Origin: Candidatus Saccharimonadota bacterium
GTDB lineage: Bacteria > Patescibacteriota > Saccharimonadia > Saccharimonadales > UBA4665
Direction: 5' to 3'
Assembly: GCA_963716945.1 (NCBI GenBank)
Contig: OY970322.1
Location: 180,001 to 212,000 of the forward strand
Length of the DNA: 32,000 nt
A program made the position numbers and the translations under genes. Under the pieces are notes generated by a model. That model ran no database searches and was not told where the DNA came from. It was given only the letters and a program-made list of their open reading frames with translations. Position 1 is the first letter of the stretch, and each line of letters begins with the position of its first letter. Below are positions 20,738-25,979 of this stretch, one piece after another.

Positions 20738-21322
20738 ATGACCCATAAAAGCGGCGACCCGACACAAAAACCAGATCTGCCGGCCCTGCCGCCCGACGTT
20801 CTGGCCGACGAGGCTATACCCGGTATGTTCCGTCTCGGGGATGATACCCGGAATCGGGAAACCCTGGCCGACGGTATCCGTGTCTTGTCTTGGAGAATGC
20901 GCAGCGATGATGTTGAGCTGGCGCCGGTTGCCGGTTGGGATGTTTTCCCCCTGGAAACAGAAGGCGGCATCGGCCGGCTGCAATTACCGCCCGGCACCCG
21001 CAGCGCTTATAGCGTCCTGTCCGGCCTCGAGGCCTGGTCGGGTGAAAAAAAGGCCGTTGTCGAGAGGGTTAGCCGGTACATGGGTGATATCCATGCCCGC
21101 TTCGGCATTTATGATACGGGTTTCTCATGGAACCAGGTAGGCGTTACCCCGGACCAGCATATTTTCGTCGCACCGCCCAATACCCCTGTCGCCGTGGTTC
21201 AGGAACGGCAGACGGCCGAATGGCAAGACATGGCCGTTGACGAACTTGGAATTCTTCTGCAGAGCGACACCGCCAACATCGGCCTTGTCGAATTGTTTAC
21301 TCAAAGCCTGCAAAGAGACTAG
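20738..21322 (+). CDS. Hypothetical protein (194 aa), first gene of a two-gene cassette
   Basis: Clean ORF with native GC. TATAAT (20726-20731) lies 6 nt before the ATG. It ends 5 nt before the next gene. I recognise no family. Confidence 0.6.
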   Translation: MTHKSGDPTQKPDLPALPPDVLADEAIPGMFRLGDDTRNRETLADGIRVLSWRMRSDDVELAPVAGWDVFPLETEGGIGRLQLPPGTRSAYSVLSGLEAWSGEKKAVVERVSRYMGDIHARFGIYDTGFSWNQVGVTPDQHIFVAPPNTPVAVVQERQTAEWQDMAVDELGILLQSDTANIGLVELFTQSLQRD

Positions 21323-21327
21323 GCACT

Positions 21328-22362
21328 ATGTCGGCTCATCCTGCTGAAGCGCCGGAGATGGAACCGCCCTCTCAGGAGACAGTCGGCCTGGGAATGCTTT
21401 CGGAGCGTTACCGGGCCAGCCTATCCCGGACCCAGCGCCTGGCGGCTTCGGTAGGCTCGGAGCTGCCGGTTCATACCATCGATCTCGCGGCCGGCAGCAA
21501 CATCCCGAGCGAACCGGGTGCCTACCTTTTCGACGAGCAGGTAACAGTTAGCCGCGGCGGTAATATTTTGGCCGCTATGTTTGCGCTTGAACCCAAGACG
21601 CTTAGCGGTAAGATCGACTCGGCGCATGCGGTTTTGCCGGGCAAGCTGTCTTTCTTGTATAGCATCAACGGCAAGCTCGCCGAAGGACACCGGTATGTGG
21701 CCGCCAAAGGCTACTACAAGAGGGAGCTCGAAGACCGTTTCCGGCGTATGGAAGCTGAAATTCAGATTAGCCGTTCCCAGAGGGAAAGGGGCGAGATAGC
21801 GTTTGACCCCATAGCCGTGGTGGTGGCGCCCCCCGAATACAAAGGCAAGCAAACGGATAATTCGGCTTATGAACTGCTGCTGGTTACGGCGCTTGACGAA
21901 GGCGTGACCACACTGGACAACCAGCCATGGCAGCTCGGTTTCGACCAAGCTAACCTGGCACTGGCCGAATCGGCCGTTGACGCCCTCGGCAGGTTTAACA
22001 CCACTATCGGCATGCACGGCGACGCCAAAATCAAAAATGTTGCCCAGGGTCCGAGCGGCCAGACCAGCATGATTGATTTCGAAACCAGCCGCACCATCGA
22101 TTTGGAAGACCCTTCCAGCGTTGCCGCGGCCGTTAATGAGGACCTGGCTAAACTGTTTAAGTCGCTGAGCGACCAAGGCTTCTTCGAGCGCGAACCTTAC
22201 CGGGCCCGGGAAGTACTTGAAGCCTTGGCCGAGAAGTACGCCGGACATTGGCAATCACGCTCGCCGGCAGTTCAGAATGCGGTCTACGAAGCGATTATTA
22301 ACGTCGTCGACAATTGTGTCGGGCAGGTACGGCCGCCGGCTTTCCAAAAAGCCATGGCTTGA
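21328..22362 (+). CDS. Atypical protein-kinase-like fold protein (RIO/Bud32/APH/Kdo-kinase-like)
   Basis: Catalytic-loop-like HGDAKIKN has His230, Asp232 (22021-22023) and Asn237. A metal-binding IDFE has Asp250 (22075-22077). Upstream are YVAAK (a beta3-Lys candidate) and an acidic helix ELEDRFRRMEAE. No canonical Gly-rich loop was seen. Confidence 0.55.
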   Translation: MSAHPAEAPEMEPPSQETVGLGMLSERYRASLSRTQRLAASVGSELPVHTIDLAAGSNIPSEPGAYLFDEQVTVSRGGNILAAMFALEPKTLSGKIDSAHAVLPGKLSFLYSINGKLAEGHRYVAAKGYYKRELEDRFRRMEAEIQISRSQRERGEIAFDPIAVVVAPPEYKGKQTDNSAYELLLVTALDEGVTTLDNQPWQLGFDQANLALAESAVDALGRFNTTIGMHGDAKIKNVAQGPSGQTSMIDFETSRTIDLEDPSSVAAAVNEDLAKLFKSLSDQGFFEREPYRAREVLEALAEKYAGHWQSRSPAVQNAVYEAIINVVDNCVGQVRPPAFQKAMA

Positions 22363-22396
22363 CCGAATTCTGGCACTCGGGTATGATGAGTGCTAG
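22359..22396 (+). promoter_or_regulatory. groESL promoter (TTGACC-17 nt-TATGAT) overlapped by a CIRCE (HrcA operator) inverted repeat
   Basis: The -35 TTGACC is at 22359-22364 and the -10 TATGAT at 22382-22387. cTGGCACTC-N9-GAGTGCTAg (22370-22396) matches the CIRCE consensus TTAGCACTC-N9-GAGTGCTAA at 15 of 18 positions. The -10 lies inside the 9-nt spacer. Confidence 0.8.
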
Positions 22397-22454
22397 AAGC
22401 AGGTGTTTTGTGCGAGATTACATCTGTTAAGTCTAAACTTATTGGAGGTTCAAT

Positions 22455-22721
22455 ATGAGTACACCATTGCAACCCTTGAGCGATTATATCGTCGCCCAGG
22501 CCGAAGAAGCGGAGAGCAAGACCGCGAGCGGGCTGTACTTGCCCGACAAGGCGCAGGAGAAGCCCAAAACCGCCAAAGTTTTAGCTGCCGGCCCGAATGC
22601 CAGGCAGGTCAAAGCCGGCGACCGGATCGTCTATAAGAGCTATAGCACCACCGAAGTCAAGGTCGGCGGGGAAGACTACATTTTGGTTAAAGAAGAAGAC
22701 GTCCTGGCGACGGTTAAATAA
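22455..22721 (+). CDS. groES: Co-chaperonin GroES
   Basis: 88 aa with the mobile-loop region ESKTASGLYLPD. GGAGG SD lies upstream, and the gene sits immediately 5' of groEL. Confidence 0.95.
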   Translation: MSTPLQPLSDYIVAQAEEAESKTASGLYLPDKAQEKPKTAKVLAAGPNARQVKAGDRIVYKSYSTTEVKVGGEDYILVKEEDVLATVK

Positions 22722-22747
22722 CGCTTTAAACAGGGAGATTGATTGAT

Positions 22748-24397
22748 ATGGCAAAGAAAGTATTTTATGACGCCGATGCCCGCGGGCGGGTACTGGCCGG
22801 CGCCGAGGTTTTGTACAACGCGGTCAAAACGACAATGGGGCCCAAGGGCCGTAACGTGGTTATCAGCAAATCATTCGGCGCGCCGACCGTCACGCATGAC
22901 GGCGTGACCGTCGCCAAAGGCGTCGAGTTGGCCGATGTCGATGACGAGACGCTGGGCTACAAAGTCGGCGCCGAACTTATTAAGCAGGCCGCATCCAAGA
23001 TGAACGACGTCGCCGGCGACGGCACTACGACCGTCACCGTCCTGACTTATCACATCTTGAACGAGGCTAACAAGCTGATTGCCGCCGGGCACAACCCGAT
23101 GCTGCTGCGCAAGGGCCTGGAAGCTGCCGGGCAGGAAGCCATCGCCCAGCTGGCGGCTTTGTCCGAGGATATCCAGGGCAAGAAGTCGCGTGTCGCCGAA
23201 GTGGCGACCATCTCGGCCGGCGACGCCCAGATCGGCGACTTGATTGCCGAGGTGATTGACAAGGTCGGCAAAGACGGCGTCGTCACTGTCGAAGAAGGGC
23301 AGGGATTGGAGATGGAATCCGAGGTTGTCGAGGGCTTCACTTTCGACCGCGGCTTCGTCAGCCCTTACATGGTGACCGACACCGCCCGGATGGAAGCCGT
23401 TTACGACAAGGCCGCCGTGGTGATTACCGACATGAAGATTGCCAGCGTACAGGAATTCCTGCCGCTGCTTGAGAAACTGGCGCAAGCCGGCAAGAAAGAC
23501 TTGGTCCTGATTGCCGAGGACGTCGAGGGCGAAGCTTTGGGCACGTTGATTCTGAACCGCCTGAAGGGTGTTTTCAACACTGTAGCTATCAAGGCGCCGG
23601 CTTTCGGCGACCGCCGCAAGGACGTTTTGAACGACATCGCTATCCTGACCGGCGCCCAGGTCGTTACCGAAGACCGGGGCATGACTTTCGAGAATGTCGA
23701 TATCGACGTTGTCGGTTCGGCCCGCCGGGTCATCGTTAACAAGGATGAAACGACCATTATCGAGGGCGGCGGCTCGCCGGCCGAGGTCGCGGCCCGCATC
23801 AAGCAGATCAATGCCCAGATCGAAGCCGCTACCAGCGAGTACGACAAGGAAAATCTCGAGAAGCGCCGGGCTGCCTTGAGCGGCAAAGTCGCCGTTATCA
23901 AAGTCGGCGGCGCGACCGAAACCGAAATCGAGGAGAAGAAATTCCGCGTCGACGACGCCGTCCACGCCGTTAAGGCGGCTCTCGACGAAGGCATCGTACC
24001 GGGCGGCGGCGTGACGCTGATCAACCTGATCGGCAAAGTCAGTAGCAACGCCAGCGATGACACCTCCGTCGCGGCCGGCCGGCTGCTGCTGATCAGGGCG
24101 CTGGAACAGCCTTTCCGGATCTTGCTGGCCAACGCCGGTCTGAACGCCGACGAGTGGCTGCCTCAAGTCAAGGCCGGCAAAGCCGGCTTCGGCGTCAACC
24201 TAAACGCGCCGGGCAAGCTGGTCGACCTGAAGGCTGCCGGCATTGTCGACCCGTCCCGTGTTACTAAGGAAGCCTTGCAGAACGCCGTTTCGATTGCCGG
24301 TACCGCTATGACCATGGGCGCGTTGGTAGTTGATGTGCCTCAAGAAGAAAAGGCCGACCCGGCCGCCGGAATGGGCGGTATGGGCGGCATGATGTAG
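22748..24397 (+). CDS. groEL: Chaperonin GroEL
   Basis: MAKKVFYD start, KSFGAPTVTHDGVTVAK, AGDGTTT, and a C-terminal GMGGMGGMM tail. ATG 22748 (GGGAG 10 nt upstream) is preferred over the track's TTG 22739. Confidence 0.97.
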   Translation: MAKKVFYDADARGRVLAGAEVLYNAVKTTMGPKGRNVVISKSFGAPTVTHDGVTVAKGVELADVDDETLGYKVGAELIKQAASKMNDVAGDGTTTVTVLTYHILNEANKLIAAGHNPMLLRKGLEAAGQEAIAQLAALSEDIQGKKSRVAEVATISAGDAQIGDLIAEVIDKVGKDGVVTVEEGQGLEMESEVVEGFTFDRGFVSPYMVTDTARMEAVYDKAAVVITDMKIASVQEFLPLLEKLAQAGKKDLVLIAEDVEGEALGTLILNRLKGVFNTVAIKAPAFGDRRKDVLNDIAILTGAQVVTEDRGMTFENVDIDVVGSARRVIVNKDETTIIEGGGSPAEVAARIKQINAQIEAATSEYDKENLEKRRAALSGKVAVIKVGGATETEIEEKKFRVDDAVHAVKAALDEGIVPGGGVTLINLIGKVSSNASDDTSVAAGRLLLIRALEQPFRILLANAGLNADEWLPQVKAGKAGFGVNLNAPGKLVDLKAAGIVDPSRVTKEALQNAVSIAGTAMTMGALVVDVPQEEKADPAAGMGGMGGMM

Positions 24398-24441
24398 GTC
24401 AAATTAAGCCGGCTTGGTGGGGCTAGGCAGGGAGCACCCCC

Positions 24442-25329
24442 ATGAGTGAAGCTTTGCTGGACCTACAAACTGTACCTATTGAGAGGTATCCGTTGATACG
24501 CGTAGTCCGTCATACCCCGTTTGCTTTCTGCGGCTTTGGTATTGACGCCGAAACTTCTGACCCTGTTTTCATAAAGGCTAGAGACCCTGAATTCAGGGAT
24601 AGTGGTTTGCGGCTAAGTCGGGAAGCCGATATATTAGGACAATTTTCCCATCCGCAAATTCCGCGATTGGTTGAAGACGGTACTGCCGAGTCTCAAGAAG
24701 TGCCTTACCTAGTTTCAGAGTTCAAAGGGGGCAGTCTTTATCCCGAACGGTGGCTCGCGGCCTATCCTTATCCGCGTTTAGCGGCGCAAATTTGCCTGTC
24801 GGCCCTACAGCCCTTGGCCTACAGTCATGATAGGGATATTCTGCACCGTGATGTCAAAGCCGGTAACCTAACCATGAAGTTTAATGGCGAAGCCGCCCTA
24901 CTTGATTTTGAACTTGGCATAAATGGTAACGTCCATGGCGCTTTAGATCAAGATAGGCCAGGCGTGGCGACAGGGGAGAGTAGGATTACCAGTTCTGGTG
25001 AAGTGTTGGGCACGGCTGATTACATATCACCGGAACGAGCTCGCGGAGAACTGGGAACGGCCCGGAGTGATATTTACTCCATGGGGGTAGTCCTCTACAA
25101 GCTTCTCTACGGCAAGCTACCTTTTACGGCAGGACTCGACATAGTGGTTGCTAGAAAACATTGTTTTATGGATATCGATCTAGCCGATACGGATCGAGAT
25201 ATTCCGGAAGCGCTGACGGCAGTTATAGAGACTGCTACCCAAAAGGAACCAAAGCACCGCTACGGTTCGGCCGGCGAGATGGGCGAGGCGATTGAACGGT
25301 TTCTGCGGGACGAGGCGCCGGGAGTTTAG
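24442..25329 (+). CDS. Hanks-type Ser/Thr protein kinase, kinase domain only (295 aa, no TM or sensor domain)
   Basis: HRDVKAGN with Asp137 (24850-24852), DFE in place of DFG with Asp155 (24904-24906), and an activation-segment end GTADYISPE. Also VFIKA (beta3 Lys), SREADIL (alphaC Glu) and DIYSMGVVLYKLLYGKLPF. GGGAG SD lies upstream. It starts 44 nt after groEL with no terminator. GC is about 43-53% in sampled lines. Confidence 0.85.
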   Translation: MSEALLDLQTVPIERYPLIRVVRHTPFAFCGFGIDAETSDPVFIKARDPEFRDSGLRLSREADILGQFSHPQIPRLVEDGTAESQEVPYLVSEFKGGSLYPERWLAAYPYPRLAAQICLSALQPLAYSHDRDILHRDVKAGNLTMKFNGEAALLDFELGINGNVHGALDQDRPGVATGESRITSSGEVLGTADYISPERARGELGTARSDIYSMGVVLYKLLYGKLPFTAGLDIVVARKHCFMDIDLADTDRDIPEALTAVIETATQKEPKHRYGSAGEMGEAIERFLRDEAPGV

Positions 25330-25979
25330 CCGTCTTCGGGTTCGGGCTGTTCGTCGTGCGGGTTGGTGAAGTAGTTGACTTCGTTGATGATGTCCATCAG
25401 GGCTTGGGCGCGGGCTGATTCGTCCTCGATAGAGTGGGCGGCGACGTAGGCGGCTTTGACCAGTTCCTGGTTGTCGCTGGCCTGGATCATCATCATGATG
25501 GTACGGAATTTCTCCTCGGGCGGCAGGTCCAGCTTGTCGATTATCGGGATTAGCTCGTCGAGGGCCTTGTTCTTGATGTCGATTAGCTCTTCGTTGGCCG
25601 GGCTGTCATTGTCGTCTTTGGGGGCCTGGGTATCGCTTGAGGAAATCGAGGGTACCGGGTACTGGTAAGTCGGCTTCTTGGGGAAACCGCCGGCCGGTGA
25701 AATTATATCCTTGATCGGCTCTTTGCTGCCGCCCAGCGGCGTGCCGGGGTGCTGCCACGGCTGCTCCTCGGCCACGGGTGCTGCCGGGTCGCCGGAAGGC
25801 GTGTCGATTGAAACGGCGTCCGGATCCGGGGTTGCCGACGAAGCCGGGGCTATGCTGGGTACTATGGCGGCCGCTTGGGACTGGTCGTCCGCCTCGCTCA
25901 ATGCCCCCTGGATTGACTCGTCCGAAATAGCGTTGCTGTCTTGCTGCGCTGGCTGATTATCGTCCTGGTGCCCAAACAT
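25326..25979 (-). CDS. Hypothetical acidic protein with a disordered N-terminal half and a helical C-terminal domain
   Basis: 217-aa ORF. The low-complexity D/E/P/S-rich N-terminus is followed by a helical region (EEKFRTIMMMIQASDNQELVKAAYVAAH). Its stop codon overlaps the kinase stop codon. Confidence 0.6.
   Translation of the reverse strand: MFGHQDDNQPAQQDSNAISDESIQGALSEADDQSQAAAIVPSIAPASSATPDPDAVSIDTPSGDPAAPVAEEQPWQHPGTPLGGSKEPIKDIISPAGGFPKKPTYQYPVPSISSSDTQAPKDDNDSPANEELIDIKNKALDELIPIIDKLDLPPEEKFRTIMMMIQASDNQELVKAAYVAAHSIEDESARAQALMDIINEVNYFTNPHDEQPEPEDG

What the first reader, a model, noticed from the sequence alone, without database searches (positions are those of the whole stretch)
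22359..25329. CIRCE/HrcA-type heat-shock operon groES-groEL appears extended by a lower-GC, kinase-domain-only Ser/Thr kinase
A near-consensus sigma70 promoter (TTGACC-17-TATGAT) is overlapped by a CIRCE inverted repeat (TGGCACTC-N9-GAGTGCTA), with the -10 inside the spacer. This is the classic HrcA repression geometry. The -35 box overlaps the stop codon of the upstream atypical-kinase gene. Downstream of groEL there is only a 44-nt gap. I found no hairpin plus T-tract there, only a loopless palindrome AAGCCGGCTT. A GGGAG SD follows, then a 295-aa Hanks kinase with HRDVKAGN, DFE instead of DFG, and SPE, and with no sensor or TM domain. So the kinase is probably co-transcribed with the chaperonin under heat-shock control. 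The kinase gene is compositionally distinct, with sampled lines at 43-53% G+C against 57-67% in groEL. That suggests a later insertion into the operon. Phosphorylation of GroEL by Hanks kinases is known in other bacteria (mycobacterial and Bacillus examples). A dedicated kinase hard-wired into groESL would therefore be a neat chaperone-regulation module.
Basis: partly seen in the sequence, partly recalled or inferred. Interest (0 to 1): 0.62.

Follow-up and report, generated by a model that had tools for sequence, protein, structure and literature searches.

The report
Heat-shock chaperonin operon carrying a kinase
In this tiny Saccharimonadales (candidate phyla radiation) genome, the heat-shock-controlled groES-groEL operon is followed directly by a small, fast-evolving protein kinase gene; this kinase family always sits behind groEL in a few related lineages, but nothing yet shows that it acts on the chaperonin.

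Summary
The sequence observation is confirmed in every detail. The promoter TTGACC-17-TATGAT overlaps a CIRCE repeat. groES and groEL follow, then a 44-nt gap with no terminator, then a 295-aa Hanks-type kinase with HRDVKAGN, DFE and SPE and a low G+C content.

The genome has hrcA and four more CIRCE sites (hrcA-grpE, dnaK, clpP, clpC-like). The promoter/CIRCE geometry is conserved across the order.

The kinase is not a one-off insertion. It belongs to a monophyletic, kinase-domain-only subfamily found so far only in some Saccharimonadales, in two families. In all but one case it lies directly 3' of groEL.

The subfamily is patchy: a same-genus relative with 97% identical GroEL lacks it and has a terminator-like hairpin in its place. 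It evolves very fast (58% identity where GroEL is 98%). It keeps all catalytic residues but has no glycine-rich loop.

Close relatives have gaps of 2-44 nt, so co-transcription is likely here. One genus has a hairpin plus a promoter of its own before the kinase.

I found no GroEL feature that tracks kinase presence, so the "dedicated GroEL kinase" idea remains untested. The scan had not noted this kinase on other DNA.

The parts
20738..21322 (+). orfA: 194-aa protein with no family match. First gene of an accessory pair upstream of groES.
   Evidence: No Pfam, NCBIfam or PADLOC match. Absent in same-genus G001 and in L034. Present directly upstream of groES in L032, L152, L153 and L154.
21328..22362 (+). 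orfB: 344-aa protein with a protein-kinase-like fold (HGDAKIKN ... IDFE). Its stop codon lies inside the groES -35 box.
   Evidence: No Pfam match. AlphaFold pLDDT 85; Foldseek matches protein kinases at E about 2e-6 but with TM only 0.34-0.42. The family has 24 members, one of them named Candidatus Saccharimonadales.
22359..22387 (+). Sigma-70-type promoter of groES: TTGACC-17-TATGAT.
   Evidence: 10 of 12 matches. TTGAC and a TAnnnT box inside CIRCE are conserved in relatives.
22370..22396 (.). CIRCE operator cTGGCACTC-N9-GAGTGCTAg, with the -10 box in the spacer.
   Evidence: Conserved upstream of groES across the order. hrcA is present in the genome.
22397..22454 (+). groES 5' leader, with a weakly conserved hairpin (CAGGTGT...ACATCTG) and the Shine-Dalgarno sequence GGAGG.
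   Evidence: 8 predicted pairs, 2 of them with compensatory changes. The support is weak.
22455..22721 (+). groES (88 aa).
   Evidence: Pfam Cpn10, E = 4.9e-24.
22748..24397 (+). groEL (549 aa), the only chaperonin gene in the genome.
   Evidence: Pfam Cpn60_TCP1, E = 3.1e-69. Single copy.
24398..24441 (+). groEL-kinase spacer, 44 nt. It holds no terminator-like hairpin and no promoter-like site; the Shine-Dalgarno sequence GGGAG lies at 24430-24434.
24442..25329 (+). Hanks-type Ser/Thr kinase, kinase domain only (295 aa). It belongs to the groEL-linked subfamily and is the only Pkinase gene in the genome.
25326..25979 (-). Convergent 217-aa acidic protein of unknown function. Its stop codon overlaps the kinase stop codon.
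   Evidence: Also present in kinase-less relatives.

Best explanation
The 295-aa gene encodes a soluble, probably active Ser/Thr kinase of PknB-like ancestry. It belongs to a small subfamily restricted to Saccharimonadales that has kept its place directly behind groEL.

In this genome it has neither a terminator in front of it nor a recognisable promoter of its own. It is therefore most likely the third cistron of the groES-groEL transcript. That transcript starts at the TTGACC-17-TATGAT promoter and is repressed by HrcA bound to the overlapping CIRCE. The kinase would then be made together with the chaperonin when protein folding is stressed.

The gene is accessory: it has been lost repeatedly, evolves quickly, and is compositionally odd in this genome. 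Its substrates are unknown, and GroEL/GroES are candidates by neighbourhood only.

Shown here: the anatomy, the regulon, the family and its distribution, and the conservation of the catalytic residues. Inferred: co-transcription, heat induction and catalytic activity.
For: Regulon:
- hrcA is present.
- There are five CIRCE sites genome-wide, in front of hrcA-grpE, dnaK, clpP, a clpC-like gene and groES.
- The CIRCE-over-the-(-10) geometry is conserved across the order.

Junction:
- The 44-nt gap has no hairpin plus T-run and no promoter-like site.
- Orthologous gaps are 22, 43, 23, 2 and 21 nt in L031, L034, L116, L123 and L128, all without hairpins.
- Kinase-less G001 has a terminator-like hairpin in the 66-bp groEL-to-downstream-gene spacer.

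Kinase:
- Pfam Pkinase scores 81.8 bits.
- The best match among solved structures by sequence is the M. tuberculosis PknB kinase domain, E = 1.6e-45.
- The AlphaFold model has pLDDT 90 and pTM 0.89. The top Foldseek hits are S. aureus PknB/Stk1 and M. tuberculosis PknA.
- K45, E61, H135-R136-D137, K139, N142, D155-F156, P197-E198, D210 and R273 are invariant in six orthologues. T183 aligns with the activation-loop residue T171 of PknB.
- Across the wider subfamily, K, E, the catalytic D, N and the DFx Asp are kept.
- dN/dS is 0.12-0.26, which indicates purifying selection.
- Active kinases with a DFE motif are known.

Distribution:
- The subfamily is monophyletic.
- It lies behind groEL in genera g1, g101 and g108 of the family, in family f51, and in metagenome contigs.
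Against:
- In genus g101 the groEL-kinase gap (86-110 nt) holds a strong G+C-rich hairpin followed by a TATAAT box. In L125 this is a full TTGAAA-17-TATAAT promoter, 11 of 12 matches. Coupling to groESL transcription is therefore not a constant feature of the subfamily.
- The glycine-rich loop is missing in every member, and the Gly of DFG is replaced. Activity is therefore unproven.
- The genome has no PP2C_2-type phosphatase (other phosphatase families were not searched).
- A weak internal promoter within the 3' end of groEL cannot be excluded by consensus scanning.
Confidence: 0.55

Rival explanations
1. Dedicated chaperonin kinase. The main substrate is GroEL and/or GroES, and phosphorylation tunes chaperonin assembly or GroES affinity during stress.
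For: - The kinase subfamily stays next to groEL across two families, even where the downstream neighbour differs (a PALP gene in L149 instead of the acidic protein).
- Hanks kinases phosphorylate GroEL in B. anthracis (PMC5460178) and GroES in Synechocystis (PMC3111230).
Against: - GroEL is 97-98% identical in close relatives with and without the kinase. The only positions that split them are E359D, V500I and two variable sites. No Ser/Thr column is specific to kinase-bearing genomes beyond what phylogeny gives.
- The kinase is lost often while GroEL is kept.
- None of the 80 nearest kinases from other phyla has groEL within 5 kb.
- The groESL flanks are a variable zone that also holds other accessory genes.
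Confidence: 0.2
2. Neighbour by inertia. The kinase regulates something unrelated, and its position behind groEL is a frozen accident in very syntenic, reduced genomes. It may be transcribed mainly from its own weak promoter.
For: - Genus g101 has a terminator-like hairpin plus its own -10 box or full promoter between groEL and the kinase. L149 and L150 have gaps of 88-110 nt.
- The segment from the Mur ligase gene to PGI carries several lineage-specific inserts: orfA/orfB, an arginase/DDAH-like gene and small ORFs.
- One subfamily member, in G261, is not next to groEL within 1.5 kb.
Against: - Gaps of 2-44 nt without hairpins in the window's clade and in g108, including a gap of only 2 nt between the groEL stop and the kinase start (TAGCCATG).
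- No promoter-like site before the kinase in the window.
- The adjacency holds over groEL divergence down to about 77% identity.
Confidence: 0.15
3. Conflict gene. The kinase serves phage defence or interaction with the host bacterium, which would explain its fast evolution, patchiness and possible lateral allele exchange. CIRCE control would switch it on when GroEL is overloaded, for example by phage capsid production.
For: - Between the window and L031, kinase dN is 0.34 and dS 1.8, against dN 0.01-0.09 and dS 0.5-0.76 for seven flanking genes. Kinase identity is 58% where GroEL is 98%.
- Presence/absence varies within genera.
- GC3 is 0.47 against 0.77 in the flanks.
- PADLOC PD-T4-6 models match at E = 9.5e-47.
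Against: - The PD-T4-6 match is not specific. Ordinary PknB-like kinases score 285-336 bits on the same models, against 158 bits here.
- No other defence genes or mobile-element genes are adjacent.
- Overall dN/dS is 0.12-0.26, which does not indicate positive selection.
- The AU test does not reject vertical descent within the clade (p = 0.12).
Confidence: 0.1
4. Pseudokinase or decaying gene. Loss of the glycine-rich loop and of the DFG glycine has abolished catalysis, and the protein is a scaffold or is on its way to being lost.
For: - No glycine-rich loop in any member, and a variable third residue of the DFx motif (E, D or G; also DWE). One member has NAD in place of HRD.
- Frequent loss. 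One relative (G261) gave two separate kinase matches, although the locus reads as a single 265-aa ORF.
- No PP2C_2-type phosphatase partner.
Against: - Intact ORFs of constant length in more than 15 lineages.
- The Lys, the alphaC Glu, the catalytic Asp, the Asn, the DFx Asp, the APE Glu and the activation-loop Thr are all conserved.
- dN/dS is well below 1.
- Known DFE kinases are active.
Confidence: 0.1

Closest known systems
PknB/Stk1/PrkC-type Hanks Ser/Thr kinases (kinase domains of M. tuberculosis PknB, PDB 1MRU/3F69, and S. aureus PknB/Stk1, PDB 4EQM)
   Same: - Best sequence and fold matches.
- HRDxKxxN catalytic loop of an RD kinase.
- An activation-loop Thr aligned with PknB T171.
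- The GTxxYxSPE P+1/APE segment.
- The full C-lobe.
   Different: - No juxtamembrane, transmembrane or PASTA part. NCBIfam PknB_PASTA_kin scores 156.8 bits against a cut-off of 450.
- No glycine-rich loop.
- DFE instead of DFG.
- No adjacent PP2C phosphatase gene (the flanking genes are groEL and an unrelated acidic protein), and no PP2C_2 match anywhere in the genome.
- Located in the groESL operon rather than a cell-division or cell-wall cluster.
CIRCE/HrcA-controlled groESL operons of Bacillus subtilis and many other bacteria
   Same: A sigma-70-type promoter overlapped by the inverted repeat TTAGCACTC-N9-GAGTGCTAA. hrcA lies in an hrcA-grpE-dnaK cluster that carries its own CIRCE.
   Different: - The operon appears to carry a third cistron, a protein kinase.
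- The regulon also includes clpP and a clpC-like gene.
- Many relatives carry two tandem CIRCE elements before groES.
Kinase-chaperonin pairs known from experiments: PrkC-GroEL in B. anthracis (PMC5460178) and SpkC/F/K-GroES in Synechocystis (PMC3111230)
   Same: A Hanks-type kinase and the chaperonin in one organism, with a link to stress.
   Different: In those cases the kinase genes are not part of groESL and phosphorylation was shown experimentally. Here only the gene linkage is seen and no substrate is known.
Active kinases with a DFE motif: class III lanthipeptide synthetase ThurKC (PMC10604976) and corramycin kinase ComG (PMC10996006)
   Same: Asp-Phe-Glu in place of DFG. These cases show that the motif is compatible with catalysis.
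   Different: Those enzymes act on peptides or antibiotics and have other domains or folds attached. Sequence similarity to LanKC/LanL models is weak (E = 5e-5 to 4e-12).

Membership tests
Hanks-type (eukaryote-like) Ser/Thr protein kinase, Pfam PF00069 | Profile match above the curated cut-off, and a bilobal kinase fold | tested here: met
   Pkinase 81.8 bits against a cut-off of 31.7. AlphaFold pLDDT 90; Foldseek top hits are bacterial PknB and PknA, TM 0.73-0.86.
Hanks-type (eukaryote-like) Ser/Thr protein kinase, Pfam PF00069 | Catalytic residues: beta3 Lys, alphaC Glu, HRDxKxxN, the Asp of DFG, the APE Glu, the alphaF Asp and the alphaH-I Arg | tested here: met
   K45, E61, H135-R136-D137-K139-N142, D155, E198, D210 and R273 are invariant in six orthologues and in a 35-sequence alignment.
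Hanks-type (eukaryote-like) Ser/Thr protein kinase, Pfam PF00069 | Glycine-rich loop GxGxxG | tested here: not met
   The segment aligned to GFGGMSEV of PknB reads RHTPFAFC (EHSEAVLC in the subfamily consensus). No glycine is present in any subfamily member.
Hanks-type (eukaryote-like) Ser/Thr protein kinase, Pfam PF00069 | Gly of the DFG motif | tested here: not met
   DFE in the window's clade; DFD, DFG or DWE elsewhere in the subfamily. DFE occurs in active kinases.
Hanks-type (eukaryote-like) Ser/Thr protein kinase, Pfam PF00069 | Phosphotransfer activity | not testable with these tools
   Requires a biochemical assay.
PknB/Stk1 PASTA kinases (NCBIfam NF033483) | Full-length match above the cut-off, a transmembrane helix and extracellular PASTA repeats | tested here: not met
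   156.8 bits against a cut-off of 450, and only the kinase part matches. The whole 295-aa protein is one kinase domain.
PD-T4-6 anti-phage kinase (PADLOC) | A match to the PD-T4-6 models stronger than ordinary Hanks kinases give | tested here: not met
   158 bits here, against 285-336 bits for generic PknB-like proteins on the same models.
CIRCE/HrcA heat-shock regulon | A CIRCE inverted repeat overlapping the promoter of a chaperone operon | tested here: met
   Conserved in relatives.
CIRCE/HrcA heat-shock regulon | An hrcA gene in the genome, with other CIRCE-bearing chaperone genes | tested here: met
   HrcA Pfam match, 63.6 bits, at G000:C1:71732-72115. CIRCE sites lie before hrcA-grpE, dnaK, clpP and a clpC-like gene.
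CIRCE/HrcA heat-shock regulon | HrcA binding and heat induction | not testable with these tools
Three-gene operon groES-groEL-kinase | One transcript spanning the groEL-kinase junction | not testable with these tools
   Comparative inference only.

The most novel reading that the evidence does not exclude
The kinase is a stress-gated modifier of the chaperonin system. It is made only when HrcA repression lifts, that is, when GroEL is saturated. It then phosphorylates GroEL, GroES or their clients, either to retune folding capacity or to block a phage that needs GroEL. Its rapid evolution would reflect an arms race. This would be the first chaperonin operon with a built-in kinase.
Probability: 0.15. 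Interest if true: 0.75.

Novelty: new variant of a known kind. Interest (0 to 1): 0.45.

Why it matters
GroEL and GroES phosphorylation by Hanks kinases has been reported in a few bacteria, but the kinases there are general and encoded elsewhere.

A kinase subfamily that has stayed glued to groEL across two Saccharimonadales families gives a simple, testable pairing in organisms with only about 1000 genes and a single Hanks kinase. In some lineages it sits within the HrcA-controlled transcript.

It also offers a natural series of kinases without a glycine-rich loop and with DFE, DFD, DFG or DWE variants, which is useful for asking what a minimal active kinase needs.

If the link to GroEL is only positional, the locus is still a clear example of an accessory gene slot with fast turnover in a reduced genome.

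Tried and rejected
- Organism names: the cluster look-up returned none. The taxon rests on one named orfB homologue, Candidatus Saccharimonadales, and on earlier notes of this scan.
- The scan of genome contigs with the kinase profile returned only generic Hanks kinases of Actinomycetota, Chloroflexota and Bacillota at 37% identity or less over the full domain. None has groEL nearby. A host-derived origin cannot be argued from this.
- The PADLOC PD-T4-6 hit was rejected as non-specific.
- Search for GroEL residues that track kinase presence: nothing beyond the phylogenetic signal. The look-up of the six B. anthracis phospho-Thr positions by raw residue number was not alignment-based and should be disregarded.
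- Direct repeats or scars at the borders of the kinase gene compared with the empty site in G001: none seen.
- Kinase tree against groEL tree: the free kinase tree places the window's allele with L034. The AU test does not reject the vertical grouping (p = 0.12), so I do not claim incongruence from topology. I claim only that divergence is decoupled from the flanks.
- orfB against the kinase profile: only a 45-residue catalytic-loop match, probability 20%. They are not demonstrable paralogues.
- Literature: no paper in the searched library links a Ser/Thr kinase to groESL in Saccharibacteria.

Full report
**1. What is in the sequence**

- A sigma-70-type promoter, TTGACC (22359-22364), 17 nt, TATGAT (22382-22387), is the only plus-strand promoter-like site between 22000 and 26200.
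- It is overlapped by the inverted repeat cTGGCACTC-N9-GAGTGCTAg (22370-22396). The -10 box lies in the 9-nt spacer.
- The core GCACTC-N9-GAGTGC occurs once in the window, against 0.06 expected by chance.
- The TGA stop of the upstream 344-aa gene (22360-22362) lies in the -35 box.
- groES (22455-22721) and groEL (22748-24397) follow.
- Next comes a 44-nt spacer with the palindrome AAGCCGGCTT and the Shine-Dalgarno sequence GGGAG. It has no hairpin followed by a T-run.
- Then comes a 295-aa ORF (24442-25329) that matches Pfam Pkinase at 81.8 bits, against a cut-off of 31.7.
- Its stop codon overlaps the stop codon of a convergent 217-aa acidic protein (25326-25979, minus strand).
- The kinase gene has G+C 0.51 and GC3 0.47, against 0.61 and 0.77 in groEL.

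**2. The genome and the regulon**

The window lies in a 1.10-Mb single-contig genome with 57% G+C. Earlier notes of this scan call it Saccharibacteria. One homologue of the upstream gene is named Candidatus Saccharimonadales.

The genome has an hrcA gene. It has five CIRCE sites:
- two perfect ones, before clpP and before a clpC-like gene;
- two with one mismatch, before hrcA-grpE and before dnaK;
- the groES site, whose three mismatches all lie at the outer positions.

Upstream of groES the same arrangement is conserved in about 25 relatives of the family and order: TTGAC, then CIRCE with a TAnnnT box in its spacer. Often a second CIRCE follows. HrcA/CIRCE control of groESL is therefore well founded, although no binding or induction was tested.

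**3. The groEL-kinase junction**

The comparative picture is as follows.
- In the same-genus relative G001 (GroEL 97% identical), window bases 24398-25342 are replaced by 66 bp. Those 66 bp contain a terminator-like hairpin with a T-rich tail.
- In genomes that carry an orthologous kinase and are close to the window, the groEL-kinase gap is 22, 43 and 23 nt. In genus g108 it is 2 and 21 nt. None of these has a hairpin.
- In genus g101 the gap is 86-110 nt. It holds a strong G+C-rich hairpin with a T-tail, followed by a TATAAT box about 35 nt before the start codon. In L125 the scan finds a full TTGAAA-17-TATAAT promoter, 11 of 12 matches.
- The two most distant members (L149 and L150) have gaps of 88 and 110 nt.

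Co-transcription with groESL is thus the likely state in this genome and its nearest kinase-bearing relatives. It is not a fixed property of the subfamily.

**4. The kinase itself**

- By sequence the nearest solved structure is the kinase domain of M. tuberculosis PknB (E = 1.6e-45).
- An AlphaFold model from a 35-sequence alignment has pLDDT 90 and pTM 0.89. Only the activation loop (167-185) is of low confidence.
- The best Foldseek matches are S. aureus PknB/Stk1 and M. tuberculosis PknA.
- The whole protein is one kinase domain, with no membrane or sensor part. The NCBIfam PASTA-kinase model is far below its cut-off.
- K45, E61, HRD(135-137), K139, N142, D155-F156, P197-E198, D210 and R273 are invariant in six orthologues. 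T183 aligns with the activation-loop residue T171 of PknB.
- The glycine-rich loop is absent in all members.
- The third residue of the DFx motif is E in the window's clade and D or G elsewhere; two members have DWE. One member has NAD in place of HRD.
- DFE is found in biochemically active kinases: ThurKC (PMC10604976) and ComG (PMC10996006). The motif is therefore no sign of a dead enzyme.
- dN/dS is 0.12-0.26, which indicates purifying selection.
- This is the only Pkinase gene in the genome.
- There is no PP2C_2-type phosphatase and one FHA-domain protein, which lies next to a receiver-domain gene.

**5. Distribution and history**

- A search of 5.8 billion proteins found five close orthologues (49-57% identity). 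All are encoded directly behind groES-groEL in metagenome contigs.
- Among 310 genomes of the family, strong matches occur only in four genera. In genera g101 and g108 all eight loci read groEL, kinase, acidic protein (minus strand), PGI.
- Among 401 genomes drawn from the order, only one further family (f51) has a member, again behind groEL.
- The sister sequence P0010 also follows groEL, but is followed in turn by a PALP gene.
- In a tree with generic PknB-like kinases, all groEL-linked kinases form one clade.
- On a groEL tree the kinase-bearing genomes fall in one part of the family, interspersed with kinase-less ones such as G001, G007 and G013.
- The simplest history is one old acquisition at this slot followed by several losses. 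It is not a recent insertion in this genome.
- One subfamily member, in G261, is not next to groEL within 1.5 kb. That assembly has 320 contigs.

**6. Rate and composition**

Between the window and L031:
- GroEL is 98% identical and seven flanking genes have dS 0.5-0.76 and dN 0.01-0.09.
- The kinase is 58% identical, with dN 0.34 and dS 1.8.
- That is as diverged as the window-L034 kinase pair, whose groEL dS is 1.6.
- In the high-GC members (window, L035) kinase GC3 is 0.45-0.47 against 0.63-0.78 in the flanks. This resembles the values seen in lower-GC relatives.

Replacement of the allele from a related lineage is the simplest reading. Locally accelerated evolution with relaxed codon usage is the alternative. 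The AU test does not reject a vertical grouping of the window, L031 and L035 kinases (p = 0.12), so I leave this open.

**7. Is GroEL the substrate?**

Nothing here shows it.
- Among close relatives with and without the kinase, the only separating GroEL positions are E359D, V500I and two variable sites.
- Over 13 kinase-bearing and 25 kinase-less genomes, no Ser/Thr column is specific to the former beyond the phylogenetic signal.
- The 80 nearest kinases from other phyla have no groEL within 5 kb.
- In favour of the idea are the long-kept adjacency and the published cases of GroEL phosphorylation by PrkC (PMC5460178) and GroES phosphorylation in Synechocystis (PMC3111230).

**8. Other readings**

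- Defence: the PADLOC PD-T4-6 hit is non-specific, since ordinary PknB-like proteins score about twice as high on the same models.
- Pseudokinase: this is made unlikely by the conserved catalytic set.
- Neighbour by inertia: this remains possible. The segment between the Mur ligase gene and PGI is a variable zone.
  - Upstream of groES this genome carries orfA/orfB (20738-22362). They are absent in G001 and L034, yet sit at the same place in kinase-less genomes L152-L154.
  - orfB has a remote protein-kinase-like fold, and its sequence resembles the kinase only over the catalytic loop.

**9. Verdict**

The regulatory reading is supported, co-transcription is probable but unproven, "late insertion" is not supported as stated, and the GroEL-substrate idea is untested.

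I found no description of a groESL-linked kinase in Saccharibacteria in the searched literature. The scan's own notes hold no look-alike on other DNA.

I class it as a new variant of a known kind: a Hanks-type kinase subfamily without a glycine-rich loop, tied to the chaperonin locus.

Noticed in passing
window 20738-22362; loci L032, L152, L153, L154: The orfA/orfB pair (194 and 344 aa) is an accessory module that always sits directly upstream of groES, also in genomes without the downstream kinase. It is absent in same-genus G001. orfB has a remote protein-kinase-like fold (HGDAKIKN...IDFE) and no Pfam match. groESL is thus flanked here by two different kinase-like genes.
   Followed up: partly
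G000:C1:70204, 72431, 784553, 804517 (outside the window): Four further CIRCE sites define the HrcA regulon: dnaK, hrcA-grpE, clpP and a clpC-like gene. In all four the 9-nt spacer holds TTGAC (a -35-like box), whereas at groES it holds the -10 box.
   Followed up: partly
G000:C1:801954-804441, minus strand (outside the window): The CIRCE-preceded ClpC-like AAA+ gene appears split into four ORFs (195, 259, 223 and 128 aa) in different frames. This could be frameshifts, a pseudogene or assembly errors.
   Followed up: no
loci L133, L136, L138, L139, L142, L145 (relatives G087, G001, G186, G086, G021, G083): A second, unrelated family of kinase genes (about 310-366 aa) in relatives always lies convergent with, and overlapping, a dus-like (tRNA dihydrouridine synthase) gene. 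The window's genome lacks it.
   Followed up: no
window 22397-22454 and the groES leaders of L006, L031, L034, L016, L022: The groES 5' leader holds a hairpin with a conserved loop, TGCGAG, at the place where many relatives have a second CIRCE. Covariation support is weak (8 pairs, 2 compensatory).
   Followed up: partly
window 25326-25329 and orthologous loci: The four-base overlap between the convergent kinase gene and the acidic-protein gene at their stop codons is conserved in the window, L031, L034, L116, L123, L124 and L127. No terminator lies between them, so groESL-kinase read-through would be antisense to the acidic-protein gene.
   Followed up: partly
L124 (G243:C3), groEL: groEL of this relative changes frame about 140 codons before its end. 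This may be an assembly error or a frameshift.
   Followed up: no
L116 (metagenome contig): Mosaic similarity to the window: the C-terminal half of GroEL is only 69% identical and PGI 58%, but the acidic protein is 68% identical and the kinase falls inside the window's clade. This hints at block exchange of the kinase plus the acidic-protein gene.
   Followed up: no
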